Of a stretch of 11,959 bases of DNA, positions 176 through 4,570 are shown one piece after another. The notes under the pieces were generated by a model that had not been told where the DNA came from, made no database searches, and saw only the letters and a program-made list of their open reading frames with translations. Made by a program: the position numbers and the translations under genes. The stretch's first letter is position 1. Each line of letters begins with the position of its first letter. The stretch lies in the UHGV virus genome UHGV-0320335, one strand, 5' to 3'. This stretch comes from a virus.

Positions 176-3100
176 TCAGCTGATACTGATGCCTGCGGTG
201 GCTTTCTTCATCACCACAACCAGCAAATCGCTGATACTTGCTGTGGGATACCAGTTATTCACCAGCCATGCTGACACCGAAAACTCCAGTGTCATGTGAC
301 CGTGACCGGCAGGCATATCAATAACACCACTGTAAATCAGCGTATTATCCAGCGCGGTACGGTTATAAATTTCAGCACCGTTTTTCCGCACTATCAGACG
401 GCATGAGGAGTAAATATCAGTATGCTCTTTCTCATGTTTAGCGCCGCTGAATGCCACCGCCGGAATAACAATCTGCCGGTCAAACGGCTGATCGTCATAA
501 ACCCTGACGGTAATGGTCCCTGATGGCCACCGCTCCGGTGCACGGGAGTCCCGGGGGAAAGCTTTGCCCACTGTTTTAACGAGATCGCCTTCAATCTGGT
601 TGGCGGACAGTTTTCCCAGAACCCGACAGTTTTCGTTAATCGTGACGTTGTTGAGCGTCCCGGAGTTCGCATTCACGTTACCGCTGATATCGGCATTTTT
701 CGCCGTCAGCCGCCCGTCCGGTGTCAGGGAAAATGCCGGAGGATTACCGCCACTGGTAATGGTGGGAGCCGTCAGGTATTTCAGGAACACTTCGTTCATG
801 AATATCTGATCGCCCTGACCAACAAACATCGGCTTTGTGTTGCCATTCGCAGGATTAATCATCGCAATCCGGTCAGCAGCCAGAAGCACCTGACTCTGCA
901 TACCTGCTGGCGTATTCTCAATACCGGCTCCGATACCCGCAATATAAAGGCGTCCGTCCTTCATCTGCTGCAGTTTCACGGCCCACATGCTGTTCAGGTT
1001 ATTATTTGTATCAACCTGAACTTTCTGTATCTGCTGGATTGCCGCGCTCTGATTTTCCAGTTTTTTATTGACGGTCTGCGTGATTTCATTGCTGACATTC
1101 GTAATGGACGTCCTGATTTCAGCCAGATCAGGCGCAAGCTGACCGTTATCAATCTGCGTCCACAACTCCTGAGCCAGATGGGTTTTCCCTATCTCTCCTT
1201 TGAAAAAATCCAGATAGCCGGATGCATCATCACTCGGCTGGCCAACAGCCTCCACAAATGCCGATTTGCCAACAGTATTCACACTGCGGATATAAAAATA
1301 ATAATCATGGCCCGGTTTGATATTGATACTGGCAGCTATCCAGTACAGCGCCGAGCCAAGATAGCGGGCTGCGGTTTCAACCTGCCTGATATCCGCAATC
1401 CGCTTTTCCGAGAACCAGAACTCAAACTGTACCGTCGGGTCATAAACGGCAAGATGCGGCGTGGCGGTTATCTGAAAATAGCCCGGCGTCAGCTCAATCC
1501 GCGACGGTGCTGCCGGTGCGGCAATCCGGAAGGTGGTGGTGGCAGGTTCACCCTGCTGGCCATAGCTGTTTATCGCCCGCACCGTCAGGGTGTATTCCCC
1601 GAGCGGCAGGCCGCTGAAACGGTGCTCCGTGTCTGCGGTGATGGCGGTGGTCACCAGTCTGGCATCCGTTCCCTTACCACTGGTCAGGCGCAGACTGAAG
1701 CGCACACCCTTCACCACCCGCGGCGTGTCCCATTTCGCCTGCGCCAGATACTGGCCGTCAGCTGCGCTCACCTCCACCGTCAGGTGCTGCACTGCCGGTG
1801 GGATGACGCTGTTCAGGGAACCTGACTGCGGCTCAAAGCGGGCACCGTTATCCACGATGGCTTCTTTTTCCGGTACGTGCTGCACCGCCGTGATGGCAAA
1901 GGTGCCGTCCGTGTTTTCCCGGACGGAGACACAGCGGAACAGGCGACGGCGCAGTGACGGCAGGGAGAGTCCCCACACCCCGTATGTCTCCACACCATCA
2001 GGCAGGGTACTGACCTGTATCCGGTCCGGCGCGGGGTGTTCGGTGATGTCCACACTCACCGGCTTACCGCTGCCGTTAATCAGGTTCACCGTGGCGGCAC
2101 CGGTCTCCGGAAGTGTCACTTCACGGTCCAGCGTCAGGGTGCGGGTGGCAGCATCAATGGACAGGACACGTCCGCCGGTCAGGGTCCCGGCATAGTCGTT
2201 ATCACAGATTTCAATGATGTCACCGGGTGTGTGCCGCAGCCCCTGAGACCCGAGCGTGAAATCCACCGTCTGCGTTTCCAGCAGTTCGGTCTTTATCACC
2301 CACAGTCCGGCACGGTGGGCCTGACCGCGGCTGGTACAGCCGAACGCGTCCATCTTCAGCAGGTTGCGTCCGTAGCGCAGTATGGCTTCCGGGTCTTCCA
2401 CCAGTTCCGTGGAGGTCTGCCAGCCGTTCTGCGGGTCGGTGTAATTCACCTCCACCGCCGTGTGCCGGTCCTTCAGGGCACTGAAGCTGTAGCGGAATCC
2501 CACGCCGTTATCATCCACCACCACATCGCTGTTGGTGTACGGCCACACCACATCCGACGGGCGGTCCTGAACGAACGTCAGCGTCTGACCGTTCCATACC
2601 GGCATACAGCGCATCGCAGAGCAGAAATCACTGAGAACGTCCCACGCCTTACGCTGTTGTGCCAGGTACGCATTAAAGGTCATCCGCGGCTCTGTCCCCC
2701 CGAAACCATCCGGGACCGTCTGGTCGCAGTACTGCCCGATGGCATACAGCGCCCACTTGTCCACATCCGCCGCCCCCAGACGTTTTCCCATGCCGTAGCG
2801 CGGGTGAGTCAGCATGTCCCACAGGCACCAGGCCGGGTTGTTGCTGTATGCTGGTTTCAGACTGCCGTCCCAGATACCACTGTACGTGCGTTTTTCCGGG
2901 TCATAGTTTGACGGCACCTGGATGATGCGACCGCGGATATGGTAGTTCACCGTCATCTGCTGGCCGCCGAACTGCTCCGCATCCACCTGCAGCCCCACAA
3001 TGGCCGTGTTCGGGTAGCACTGTTTCACATCGATGATTTCGGTGTATGACGACCACAGCGTCTTATTCTGCAGCTGGTCCGTGGTGCTGTCCGCCGTCTC

Positions 3101-3649
3101 CCTGACCATCCGGATGTTAAAGGGCCGGGGAGGCAGATTATCCAGAATCACCGAGGCCAGGAACTGTGAGGTGGTCTTGCCGTTAATGGTGACGTCCTTT
3201 TCCGTCACCCAGCGGCCATTACGCTGTAACTGAATCAGAATCCGGACAGAGGAAGGATTACGGTCGCCCTTTGACGTGGTCTGCACCAGTGACTGCACCC
3301 CGAAGGTAACCCGCAGGCGGTCAATGTTCGCGGACGTAATGGTGCGCGTCACCGGTTTTGCCTTCGTCACTTCCACGCCCAGTCCGGTTTCAGCTCCGGA
3401 GGACTCAAAGCCTTCCGGTGGTGTCTGCTCCTGCTCCCCGGCGCGCCAGACCGCCGTCACACCGTGTATCACGGGATTACCGTCCGTGTCCGTCAGCGGG
3501 GTTTTGTTCACCAGAATACTCTGCAGGCCTTTCACCGGGCCTTCTATCGGTCCCTCACCAATCGCATCAATCACGCTCATCATCTGCGTGGATTTGAGAT
3601 TGTCTTTCGCCTCACGCGGTGTGTGCGCCTTGCCGCCACCTTTGCCCAT
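176..3649 (-). CDS. J: Host specificity protein J (central tail fibre / tail tip protein), 1157 aa
   Basis: ORF translation begins [39 protein letters not shown], recognisably lambda gpJ-like along its length; AAGAGGTGA Shine-Dalgarno upstream of the ATG at 3649; last gene of the tail cluster as in lambda. Confidence 0.95.
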
Positions 3650-3680
3650 TACATCACCTCTTACCGTGATAATTGTTCAC

Positions 3681-3714
3681 TCACAAAAACAACAGGCACC
3701 TCACCGGGTGCCTG
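3681..3714 (-). terminator. Terminator-like hairpin plus U-rich tract about 30 nt upstream of the J start codon
   Basis: Stem CAGGCACC (3693-3700) pairs with GGTGCCTG (3707-3714), 8 bp, 6-nt loop; on the minus strand it is followed by TTGTTTTTGTGA (plus 3681-3692). Confidence 0.4.
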
Positions 3715-3752
3715 CGTCATGACGGAATAAAATTTCTGAATATCTTCACATT

Positions 3753-3780
3753 TTCACACACTGACTGTGGCGCTTATAAT
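3753..3780 (+). promoter_or_regulatory. Candidate sigma70 promoter on the strand opposite the tail genes
   Basis: -35-like TTCACA (3753-3758), 16-nt spacer, perfect -10 TATAAT (3775-3780); AT-rich upstream region; TTCACA is tandemly duplicated (3745-3750 and 3753-3758). Confidence 0.3.
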
Positions 3781-3787
3781 TTCGCTG

Positions 3788-3884
3788 CGTTAGTGTTTTT
3801 TTGCCCGAGTAACAAAAACAACTCCTTCACATTGATCTTCATTTGTCTGTCCCCGCAGCTCCGCGATCACTGCGGGATTTTTTT
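3788..3884 (+). ncRNA. Candidate small RNA of about 100 nt in the I-J spacer, antisense to the tail operon; function unknown
   Basis: Bounded by the promoter-like element above and a plus-strand intrinsic terminator; no start codon with a ribosome-binding site inside. Prediction from sequence motifs only. Confidence 0.25.
3852..3884 (+). terminator. Rho-independent terminator on the plus strand
   Basis: Stem CCCGCAG (3852-3858) pairs with CTGCGGG (3870-3876), 7 bp, 11-nt loop, followed by A and a run of 7 T (3878-3884). The T-run is on the plus strand only, so it terminates plus-strand transcripts. Confidence 0.5.
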
Positions 3885-3889
3885 ATGTT

Positions 3890-4570
3890 TTATCCCTGTC
3901 GCCCGATAACCACGACCTTTCCGCCCCCGCCTTCATCACGGGTGCTGATGTCCTGGGATATACGGCGGGAGCCAACCAGCATTTCCCCGTAAGGCACCGG
4001 CATCGGGTTCCCCTGGGCAATCATGTTATCCAGCGAGGAAAAGTACGTGTTCTGTCTGCCGTTATCCGTTGCGCGGTAATCCGGTGTTTTTGCCTTCGGG
4101 GCCAGCATCTGGGCCACACCGCCCAGAATCATGCTGGCTCCAAGTGAAAACAGCATCGTGGTGGCAGAAAAACCACCGGCTGCCAGGGCTGAACCCCATA
4201 ACGCCATTGATGCCCCGGCAGTGAAGAAAGAGCCCACGATGGCTGCCGCCCCCAACACAATCTGCAGTCCACCCTTTCCGGCCCCGGCCAGTCGCGGCAC
4301 AATGTGGATGACCGTTCCCTCACCCAGCTGTTCGTGAAGGCGGGCGTACACCACCTCCGGTGCCGTGTCTTCACCGGCAATACGTATCTGGTACCAGCCT
4401 TCGTTCATCTGAAGGCGGAATCCCGGCATCTGCATCGACAGGGCACGGATGGCTTCCGCTGCCGTGTTCACATACAGGCTGAGGCGGCGGCCAAATCGTT
4501 GTAAATCCCCGTGAAGGCAGATGTGTGCCAGTGGCGGTGACGCCAGACAGAATGCGTTCGTCGTTGCCAT
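3890..4570 (-). CDS. I: Tail tip assembly protein I, 226 aa
   Basis: Translation MATTNAFCLASPPLAHICLHGDLQRFGRRL... with Gly/Ala-rich hydrophobic middle and C-terminal ...GGGGKVVVIGRQG, lambda gpI-like; position between K and J. Confidence 0.9.
   Translation of the reverse strand: MATTNAFCLASPPLAHICLHGDLQRFGRRLSLYVNTAAEAIRALSMQMPGFRLQMNEGWYQIRIAGEDTAPEVVYARLHEQLGEGTVIHIVPRLAGAGKGGLQIVLGAAAIVGSFFTAGASMALWGSALAAGGFSATTMLFSLGASMILGGVAQMLAPKAKTPDYRATDNGRQNTYFSSLDNMIAQGNPMPVPYGEMLVGSRRISQDISTRDEGGGGKVVVIGRQG

What the first reader, a model, noticed from the sequence alone, without database searches (positions are those of the whole stretch)
3650..3889. AT-rich 240-bp I-J spacer carries a self-contained opposite-strand transcription unit (candidate ~100-nt antisense sRNA or moron remnant)
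A 240-bp spacer between I and J is long for a tightly packed tail operon and is visibly AT-rich compared with the flanking GC-rich genes. On the plus strand, antisense to the tail operon, there is a near-consensus promoter (TTCACA, 16-nt spacer, TATAAT at 3775-3780) followed about 70 nt later by a strong intrinsic terminator (7-bp GC stem 3852-3876, then 7 T). This defines a roughly 100-nt transcript with no ribosome-binding site or plausible start codon. Its 3' end abuts the 3' end of I, so it could act as an antisense or trans-acting regulatory RNA, or be the remnant of a moron insertion.
Basis: seen in the sequence. Interest (0 to 1): 0.55.

Follow-up and report, generated by a model that had tools for sequence, protein, structure and literature searches.

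The report
Known prophage small RNA PasB

Summary
The 240-bp I-J spacer (3650-3889) is AT-rich. On the plus strand it carries a near-consensus promoter (TTCACA-16-TATAAT, 3753-3780) and a strong intrinsic terminator (stem 3852-3876, then U7 to 3884).

The window is 99.95% identical to prophage PP6 of E. coli O127:H6 E2348/69. The predicted unit is the published sRNA PasB (E2348CN_0006, NC_011601.1 1466343->1466261), which maps to window 3802-3884 (+), 83 nt. PasB was validated by northern blot, depends strongly on Hfq, and sits among the top interactors in RIL-seq (Pearl Mizrahi et al. 2021). A 2026 preprint surveys its distribution.

What I add:
- The unit is a moron-like insertion compared with lambda's 60-bp spacer.
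- It is conserved at this position in about a third of complete E. coli genomes and in many Stx phages.
- EHEC Sakai EcOnc22/23/24 are very probably homologues.
- Five top RIL-seq partners all pair best with one conserved pyrimidine-rich seed (3823-3840). Three of them pair across their ribosome-binding sites.
- An invariant CRP-like box lies upstream of the promoter.

The verdict is already known and of low interest. PasB's physiological role, its regulator and its exact 5' end remain open.

The parts
3650..3889 (.). I-J intergenic spacer of the lambdoid prophage tail operon (the operon is on the minus strand). It is AT-rich.
   Evidence: ORF list; composition; RefSeq annotation of the near-identical E2348/69 locus; Pfam hits for I and J.
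3734..3753 (+). Upstream block TTCTGAAnnTCnTCACAnTT, invariant in all variants. It contains a CRP-like inverted repeat, TCTGA-N6-TCACA, at 3735-3750. It is a candidate activator site and/or UP element.
   Evidence: Invariant in 19 diverged spacers. It is the only match with at most 1 mismatch to TGTGA-N6-TCACA in the window, with 0.37 expected per window. The assignment to CRP is inference only.
3753..3780 (+). Sigma-70-type promoter: -35 TTCACA (3753-3758), 16-nt spacer, -10 TATAAT (3775-3780). The predicted start is near G3787.
   Evidence: Promoter scan, 11 of 12 matches. The -10 positions A2, T3, A5 and T6 are invariant across variants, while the -35 is poorly conserved.
3787..3801 (+). 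Possible 5' leader if transcription starts at about 3787. It holds the conserved GCGUUA and a U-run. It also contains a conserved TAnnnT (3791-3796) that could serve as an alternative -10 for a start near 3802-3803.
   Evidence: Alignments A1 and A2. The published 5' end is 3802, taken from RNA-seq coverage. This is unresolved.
3802..3884 (+). PasB sRNA as published (E2348CN_0006, 83 nt).
   Evidence: Table S6 of PMC8550237 gives NC_011601.1 minus strand 1466343->1466261. The spacer is 100% identical to E2348/69.
3811..3822 (+). A-rich (ARN)4 tract, AAC AAA AAC AAC. It is a candidate Hfq distal-face binding site.
   Evidence: Read from the sequence. The tract is A-rich in all variants. Inference only.
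3823..3840 (+). Seed region UCCUUCACAUUGAUCUUC. It is single-stranded and pyrimidine-rich, with two anti-Shine-Dalgarno-like motifs.
   Evidence: All 5 top RIL-seq partners tested pair best here, with a mean z of about -2.9 and no other region below -1.1. Perfect complements of 11 nt occur in napF and yijD. The region is unpaired in the MFE fold. The flanks CUCC and AUCUU are invariant.
3852..3884 (+). Rho-independent terminator and Hfq proximal-face module: a 7-bp stem (3852-3858 with 3870-3876), an 11-nt loop, then A and U7.
   Evidence: The stem is kept in 15 of 15 variants with one compensatory G-C to A-U change, and the loop varies in length and sequence. The 3' ends of RIL-seq chimeras fall at 3884/3885.
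3680..3715 (-). Terminator-like hairpin (3715-3692) plus a U-rich run (3691-3680) on the operon strand, directly upstream of the J ribosome-binding site. It marks the J-side edge of the PasB insertion.
   Evidence: Fold z = -3.9. 98.9% of cells are paired, with one compensatory pair in 10 variants. Lambda has an analogous hairpin.
3890..4570 (-). Tail assembly gene I (context). Its stop codon lies 5 nt beyond the PasB 3' end, convergent with it.
176..3649 (-). Tail tip / host specificity gene J (context).

Best explanation
The spacer carries pasB, the gene for an Hfq-dependent, trans-acting base-pairing small RNA of a lambdoid prophage. The prophage is identical or near-identical to PP6 of EPEC E2348/69.

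Shown by published experiments:
- An RNA of about 83 nt is made from the plus strand in the lysogen, ending at the U7 tract.
- It nearly disappears without Hfq.
- It is ligated on Hfq to dozens of mRNAs, always as the 3' partner (RNA2).

Inferred here:
- It is transcribed from the TATAAT promoter at 3775-3780. That promoter has a weak, unconserved -35 and probably depends on whatever binds the invariant upstream block (3734-3753), which looks like a CRP site.
- The primary transcript may start near 3787 and be trimmed to 3802, or it may start near 3802.
- Hfq binds the terminator U-tail and probably the (ARN)4 tract.
- The single-stranded seed at 3823-3840 pairs with targets. For napF, yijD and the phage gene after E2348C_2648 it covers the Shine-Dalgarno sequence and the start codon, which predicts translational repression.

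The whole promoter-sRNA-terminator module is an sRNA moron inserted between the I stop codon and a pre-existing hairpin upstream of J.
For: - Identity: the window is 100% identical to E2348/69 over 3600-3940 and 99.95% over 9940 bases. The PasB coordinates and the northern probe map to 3802-3884 (+).
- Expression and Hfq dependence: a northern blot confirmed the size and the Hfq-dependent stability, and PasB is higher in the non-activating condition. The delta-hfq/wt log2 fold change is -6.79 (activating) and -2.39 (non-activating), with baseMean 482 and 1082 against 4.8 (I) and 15 (J).
- RIL-seq: 37 interactions, rank 15. Partners include E2348C_2648, napF 5'UTR, map, yhhX, hflX, fabR, bfpB, espC, cesD2 and tolC, and PasB is always RNA2.
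- Seed: pairing z-scores of 5 partners converge on 3821-3844. Perfect 11-mers occur in two of them. The sites cover -11..+4 of napF, -11..+7 of the gene after E2348C_2648, and -18..-7 of yijD.
- Conservation of the promoter -10, the upstream block, the seed flanks and the terminator stem.
- Insertion relative to lambda.
Against: - No regulatory outcome on any target has been published. RIL-seq shows proximity on Hfq, not regulation.
- The original authors found no common target motif for PasB. My seed test used only 5 partners that I chose by chimera count.
- Two of those five sites (map, hflX) lie inside coding sequence, so occlusion of the ribosome-binding site cannot be the only mode.
- The reported 5' end (3802) is 15 nt downstream of the start predicted from TATAAT.
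- The CRP-like box has a mismatch at an important G. It is centred at -44.5 from a start at 3787, which is not a canonical class II position. It would fit class I (-60.5) only if the start is near 3803.
Confidence: 0.9

Rival explanations
1. PasB works mainly as a cis-antisense RNA. It is perfectly complementary to the I-J intercistronic part of the late tail mRNA. After induction it would pair with that mRNA (causing RNase III cleavage) or its convergent transcription would interfere with late transcription, and so tune J (tail tip) expression. On this view the trans contacts are secondary.
For: Geometry: the unit is convergent with I and lies wholly inside the operon's I-J spacer. The unit occupies the same position in every lambdoid prophage examined, even where its sequence has diverged to 72-80%.
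Against: A cis-antisense RNA needs no conserved sequence, yet the seed flanks, the A-rich tract and the upstream block are invariant while neighbouring positions drift. RIL-seq found dozens of trans partners and no I-J entry in Table S5. In the lysogen the late operon is almost silent. A constant position is also explained by recombination within the conserved flanking genes.
Confidence: 0.12
2. The module is mainly a transcriptional insulator. Two opposed terminators (3852-3884 on plus, 3715-3680 on minus) and a promoter block read-through into J, lom and stf in the lysogen. The short RNA would be a by-product that Hfq happens to bind.
For: Two conserved terminator-like hairpins of opposite polarity lie in one spacer. 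Lambda keeps the minus-strand hairpin without PasB.
Against: The RNA body between the promoter and the terminator has conserved blocks and a seed that matches its RIL-seq partners. The RNA is abundant, strongly Hfq-dependent, and ranks 15th by number of interactions. An insulator would not need a promoter.
Confidence: 0.04
3. The promoter and terminator are chance consensus matches in AT-rich junk, or the spacer encodes a small protein.
For: The consensus scans alone are only modestly above shuffles. A mechanical 78-aa ORF spans the spacer.
Against: Published northern and RNA-seq data show the RNA. The ORF has no Pfam hit and no ribosome-binding site, and it is broken by indels in homologues.
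Confidence: 0.01

Closest known systems
PasB (E2348CN_0006), a pathogenicity-associated sRNA of EPEC E2348/69 prophage PP6 (Pearl Mizrahi et al., Sci Adv 2021, PMC8550237; distribution in Zhu, Shabalina & Storz, bioRxiv 2026, 10.64898/2026.05.13.724894)
   Same: It is the same locus. The sequence is identical over 3600-3940. The strand, the 3' end, the terminator and the flanking genes (E2348C_1436 = I, E2348C_1437 = J) are the same, and the northern probe matches 3857-3879.
   Different: Nothing differs in sequence. Neither paper describes the promoter (the word is absent from the preprint). The seed was only proposed from conservation there, whereas here it is supported by pairing with RIL-seq partners.
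EcOnc22 / EcOnc23 / EcOnc24 of EHEC O157:H7 Sakai prophages Sp15, Sp14 and Sp11 (Tree et al., Mol Cell 2014, Table S2)
   Same: The Hfq-CRAC peaks are on the strand antisense to the tail operon, inside the I-J spacers of three lambdoid prophages. The northern band is about 85 nt and is destabilised in delta-hfq. The Sakai spacers contain a full PasB-like unit: the same upstream block, an AATAAT -10, the seed flanks, and the same terminator stem.
   Different: The Sakai units are only about 77-81% identical to the window spacer, with a different seed centre (CUCCAUAACGUUAAUCUUC), so they probably have different targets. The equivalence rests on a coordinate shift between NC_002695.1 and NC_002695.2. 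I measured that shift only at AgvB1 (+137 to +146). A shift of 122-152 is needed. The 2021 EPEC paper lists no EHEC homologue for PasB.
Prophage sRNAs at the PR' moron site: AgvB, AsxR, PasA/PasC, PasD/STnc100 (Tree et al. 2014; Rfam RF02702, RF02703, RF02076)
   Same: These are short Hfq-binding sRNAs carried by lambdoid prophages, with their own promoter and terminator, expressed in lysogens, and often convergent with phage genes.
   Different: They sit in a different genomic position (downstream of Q/PR', near the lysis genes) and have unrelated sequences. The window gives no Rfam hit. AgvB and AsxR act as anti-sRNA sponges, and nothing suggests that for PasB beyond one PasA-region chimera.
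Morons of lambdoid phages (Juhala et al. 2000; Hendrix), for example lom and bor
   Same: Extra DNA lies between two genes that are adjacent in lambda. It has its own promoter and terminator, a deviant base composition, and expression from the repressed prophage.
   Different: The cargo is a non-coding RNA rather than a protein gene, and it is oriented against the late operon.

Membership tests
PasB sRNA (E2348CN_0006) | Sequence identical or near-identical to NC_011601.1 1466343-1466261 (minus strand) | tested here: met
   Window 3600-3940 is 100% identical to NC_011601.1 1466205-1466545. The published coordinates map to window 3802-3884 (+), and the probe is the reverse complement of 3857-3879.
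PasB sRNA (E2348CN_0006) | Located between the tail genes E2348C_1436 (I) and E2348C_1437 (J) of a lambdoid prophage, convergent with I | tested here: met
PasB sRNA (E2348CN_0006) | An RNA of about 83 nt detected by northern blot and RNA-seq, with Hfq-dependent accumulation | not testable with these tools
   Taken from the literature only: northern blot and delta-hfq RNA-seq.
Hfq-dependent trans-acting base-pairing sRNA | 3' Rho-independent terminator hairpin followed by a U-tract of at least 4 | tested here: met
   A 7-bp GC-rich stem plus U7, conserved in 15 of 15 variants.
Hfq-dependent trans-acting base-pairing sRNA | A single-stranded seed complementary to several trans-encoded mRNAs | tested here: met
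   The seed at 3823-3840 is unpaired in the MFE fold. Five of 5 RIL-seq partners pair best there, and two carry perfect 11-mers. This is an in-silico test on experimentally defined partners.
Hfq-dependent trans-acting base-pairing sRNA | A demonstrated change in target translation or stability | not testable with these tools
   No published test was found. Only two papers mention PasB.
cis-antisense RNA of the tail operon | Full complementarity to a transcript from the opposite strand | tested here: met
   PasB lies wholly within the transcribed I-J spacer of the minus-strand late operon.
cis-antisense RNA of the tail operon | An effect on the sense transcript or on its products | not tested
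   No data exist. No I-J spacer partner appears in RIL-seq Table S5, but the late operon is silent in lysogens.
Phage moron | Extra DNA between genes that are adjacent in related phages, with its own promoter and terminator and a deviant composition | tested here: met
   The lambda spacer is 60 bp against 240 bp here. GC is 0.44-0.47 against 0.58-0.64.
Phage moron | Encodes a protein that benefits the lysogen | tested here: not met
   There is no credible ORF. The product is an RNA, so this is a moron only in the architectural sense.
Any Rfam 15 family | Covariance-model score at or above the gathering threshold | tested here: not met
   There were no hits at the gathering threshold in the whole window. 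Only sub-threshold chance hits appeared in 3550-4000.
CRP-activated promoter | TGTGA-N6-TCACA site at a canonical distance (-41.5 or -61.5 and so on) from the transcription start | tested here: inconclusive
   TCTGA-N6-TCACA lies at 3735-3750, with one mismatch, and is invariant in 19 variants. Its centre is -44.5 from a start at 3787 or about -60.5 from a start at 3803, and the start site is unknown. Higher expression in overnight static LB is compatible with CRP but not specific to it.

The most novel reading that the evidence does not exclude
The I-J spacer of lambdoid prophages may be a dedicated, pan-lineage insertion slot for a family of sRNA morons that includes PasB, EcOnc22-24 and tandem paralogues. 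All would be driven by one invariant promoter block that depends on a regulator, possibly cAMP-CRP. Each would share fixed anti-Shine-Dalgarno flanks around a variable seed centre, so that each phage variant reprograms a different set of host genes (here napF, yijD, map, bfpB and espC). The same RNA might also act in cis on the I-J junction of the late mRNA after induction.
Probability: 0.25. Interest if true: 0.45.

Novelty: already known. Interest (0 to 1): 0.2.

Why it matters
The finding is a correct rediscovery, from sequence alone, of a published sRNA gene. That is useful as validation of the scan but not new.

PasB itself remains functionally uncharacterised. It is one of the most connected accessory sRNAs in EPEC. 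It contacts mRNAs for virulence factors (map, bfpB, espC, cesD2) and for anaerobic respiration (napF). Relatives of its spacer occur in about a third of complete E. coli genomes, including Stx phages.

Four leads produced here make its function directly testable, but they are increments to known biology:
- a defined seed;
- RBS-covering sites in napF, yijD and a phage gene;
- a conserved CRP-like upstream box;
- the probable equivalence with EcOnc22-24.

Tried and rejected
- AgvB/AsxR hypothesis. My first guess from memory was that the spacer encodes one of the EHEC anti-sRNAs. I rejected it because those lie at the PR' moron site and the window has no Rfam hit.
- Rfam at permissive thresholds over 3550-4000 gave only sub-threshold chance hits, such as Enterococcus Ref84 and Trp leader.
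- Small-protein reading. The 78-aa ORF 3673..3909 has no Pfam hit and is not conserved in frame.
- The genome-contig scan with the 16-base degenerate promoter block was badly chosen. Nearly all of the 120 returned loci are chance matches in unrelated phyla. Only three carry a full PasB-like unit: E. albertii, locus L141 (whose organism I did not look up), and a 460-bp contig that is probably contamination. It says nothing reliable about taxonomic range.
- Whole-length RNAduplex of PasB against the targets gave meaningless end-to-end duplexes. I replaced it with longest-perfect-match and 14-nt sliding-window tests using genomic controls.
- Phrase searches for PasB rows in the RIL-seq table failed because tabs do not match as spaces. 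I found the rows by bisection.
- RNAalifold found no conserved structure other than the terminator. A weak hairpin pairing the U-run with the A-run appears only in the 98-nt single-sequence fold, with a non-significant z of -0.7.
- A search for the lambda G/T slippery heptamer GGGAAAG found it only on the wrong strand. I did not pursue it.

Full report
**Observation.** The tail operon lies on the minus strand. J is 176..3649, I is 3890..4570, and K, L, M and the tape-measure gene follow upstream. Pfam confirms lambda-type I and J. The 240-bp gap at 3650-3889 has GC 0.435-0.47 against 0.58-0.64 in the flanks. On the plus strand the consensus scan finds TTCACA-16 nt-TATAAT at 3753-3780, with 11 of 12 matches. 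It also finds a terminator whose full stem is CCCGCAG (3852-3858) paired with CUGCGGG (3870-3876), followed by A and U7 ending at 3884.

**Identity.** The spacer plus 50 nt on each side is 100% identical to E. coli O127:H6 E2348/69 and several other genomes. Across 9940 bases the window differs from E2348/69 prophage PP6 at 5 positions. RefSeq annotates nothing in the spacer, and Rfam 15 has no matching family.

A literature search found the RIL-seq study of EPEC (Pearl Mizrahi et al. 2021, PMC8550237). Its Table S6 lists PasB, locus tag E2348CN_0006, at NC_011601.1 minus strand 1466343 to 1466261. It is 83 nt long, lies in prophage PP6 between E2348C_1436 and E2348C_1437, and was probed with AATCCCGCAGTGATCGCGGAGCT. 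Converted to window coordinates this is 3802-3884 on the plus strand, and the probe is the reverse complement of 3857-3879. The finding is therefore PasB.

**Published experimental evidence.**
- Northern blots confirmed the size and the Hfq-dependent stability of PasB. PasB is higher in the non-activating condition, which is overnight static LB at 37 C.
- In RNA-seq the delta-hfq/wild-type log2 fold change is -6.79 (activating) and -2.39 (non-activating). BaseMean values are 482 and 1082, against 4.8 for I and 15 for J.
- PasB ranks 15th by number of RIL-seq interactions, with 37.
- In the non-activating sheet it is always the 3' partner of the chimeras. Its 3' ends fall at window 3884/3885 and its 5' extents reach 3817.
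- Partners include E2348C_2648 (71 chimeras, 3 libraries), napF 5'UTR (70, 3 libraries), map (67), yhhX (57), hflX (55), fabR (50), bfpB, espC, cesD2, caiF, ftsZ, tolC 5'UTR and raiA 5'UTR.
- A 2026 preprint (Zhu, Shabalina & Storz) surveys Pas sRNA distribution. It notes that PasB is embedded in an operon of phage structural genes, is the most broadly distributed Pas sRNA, and has an unknown function. It proposes, from conservation alone, a seed just upstream of the terminator. Only these two papers mention PasB.

**Anatomy and conservation.** The spacer matches 1825 of 5426 complete E. coli genomes, with up to 11 places per genome, and 147 phage records that include many Stx1- and Stx2-converting phages. 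Identities run from 100% down to about 72%. I aligned 19 I-J spacers and extracted 20 units. The alignment shows the following.
- The upstream block TTCTGAAnnTCnTCACAnTT (3734-3753) is invariant.
- The -10 is conserved as nATnAT.
- The -35 is poorly conserved.
- GCGUUA and a U-run follow at 3787-3802.
- An A-rich tract follows, here (ARN)4 at 3811-3822.
- The flanks CUCC and AUCUU are conserved around a variable centre.
- The terminator stem is kept in 15 of 15 variants, with one compensatory G-C to A-U change and a loop that varies widely in length (about 5 to 21 nt) and in sequence.
- No other conserved structure was found.
- One genome (L009) has two tandem units.

Lambda itself has only a 60-bp I-J spacer. 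It consists of a hairpin plus a U-run on the operon strand, just upstream of the J ribosome-binding site. The window has the equivalent hairpin at 3715-3692. Its fold z-score is -3.9, and 98.9% of cells are paired with one compensatory pair across 10 variants. The PasB module (about 3716-3889) is therefore an insertion between the I stop codon and this hairpin. It has a moron architecture with an RNA cargo.

**Mechanism.** I took the five strongest short RIL-seq partner segments from E2348/69 and asked where on PasB they pair.
- Longest perfect complements: napF has 11 nt against 3825-3835 (P about 0.015 against genomic controls). The fabR/yijD segment has 11 nt against 3823-3833 (P about 0.008).
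- A 14-nt sliding-window duplex scan, scored against genomic control segments, puts the best window of all five targets at starts 3821-3831. The mean z reaches -2.96 there, and no other part of the RNA falls below -1.1.
- The sites cover -11..+4 of the napF start, -11..+7 of the phage gene after E2348C_2648, and -18..-7 of yijD. The map and hflX sites lie inside coding sequence.

This supports a canonical Hfq sRNA. The U-tail, and probably the ARN tract, bind Hfq. The seed UCCUUCACAUUGAUCUUC occludes ribosome-binding sites or targets coding regions. These steps are inferred, because no regulatory outcome has been published.

**Open points.**
1. The 5' end is unresolved. TATAAT predicts a start near 3787 (a 98-nt RNA), while the paper reports 3802 from coverage and an approximate northern size. 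There may be processing in the U-run. Alternatively, a conserved TAnnnT at 3791-3796 could be a second -10.
2. The invariant upstream block contains TCTGA-N6-TCACA, one mismatch from the CRP core. It is the only such match in the window, with 0.37 expected by chance. Higher expression in glucose-free overnight LB fits CRP but is not specific to it. The spacing is canonical only if the start is near 3803.
3. A cis-antisense effect on the I-J junction of the late mRNA is geometrically possible and untested.

**Link to EHEC.** Tree et al. 2014 list EcOnc22, EcOnc23 and EcOnc24 with a northern band of about 85 nt that is destabilised in delta-hfq. Their peaks fall at a constant offset inside the I-J spacers of Sakai prophages Sp15, Sp14 and Sp11, on the strand antisense to the tail operon. 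These spacers contain complete PasB-like units.

The paper used NC_002695.1. Against NC_002695.2 I measured a shift of +137 to +146 at AgvB1 with Rfam. A shift of 122-152 puts the peaks on the PasB-like transcript. The total length difference, taken from my memory of the .1 length, is +128. I rate the equivalence at about 80%. The 2021 paper lists no EHEC homologue for PasB, and a 2021 review lists EcOnc22-24 with unknown targets.

**Verdict.** The feature is already known: it is PasB. Interest is low. The remaining value lies in the testable leads listed above.

Noticed in passing
window 3680-3715 (minus strand): A terminator-like hairpin (CAGGCACC...GGUGCCUG) plus UUGUUUUUG sits on the operon strand, directly upstream of the J ribosome-binding site. 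It is conserved with one compensatory pair, and lambda's 60-bp I-J spacer has an analogous element. Its role is unknown. It could be a Q-overridden terminator that insulates J in lysogens, or a hairpin that stabilises the mRNA 3' end.
   Followed up: partly
window 3734-3753: The block TTCTGAAnnTCnTCACAnTT is invariant in all 19 spacers. It is more conserved than the -35 hexamer and contains a CRP-like TCTGA-N6-TCACA. It may be the binding site of the regulator of pasB. Neither PasB paper describes a promoter.
   Followed up: partly
L021 484-627, L022 and L023 (E. coli O157:H7 Sakai Sp15, Sp14 and Sp11 I-J spacers): The Hfq-CRAC sRNA candidates EcOnc22/23/24 (about 85 nt, Hfq-dependent) map to the I-J spacers of three Sakai prophages that carry PasB-like units. 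They are probably PasB homologues that the PasB papers do not record as such.
   Followed up: partly
L009 349-676 (E. coli TB06053 I-J spacer): Two tandem promoter-sRNA-terminator units lie in one 424-bp spacer. The extra unit shares the upstream block and the start of the seed (AACTCCTTAAGG) but has a different body and terminator. This suggests the slot can hold several paralogous sRNAs.
   Followed up: no
L010, L013, L014 (positions about 225-400): In these genomes the J-proximal 74 nt of the spacer, including the minus-strand hairpin, is replaced by an unrelated module of about 176 bp. That module has a GC-rich hairpin flanked by A- and T-runs and looks like a bidirectional terminator. The PasB unit is kept at 98% identity.
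   Followed up: no
window 3811-3840: An (ARN)4 tract, AAC AAA AAC AAC, lies just 5' of the seed. The seed centre (CUUCACAUUG) is specific to the E2348/69-type variant, while the flanks are invariant. Different phage variants may therefore have different targets.
   Followed up: partly
L086 (460-bp contig labelled Parendozoicomonas haliclonae): This contig carries a PasB-like unit of the Sakai type that closely matches it, differing at about two bases over the region compared. It is most likely E. coli or phage contamination of that assembly.
   Followed up: no
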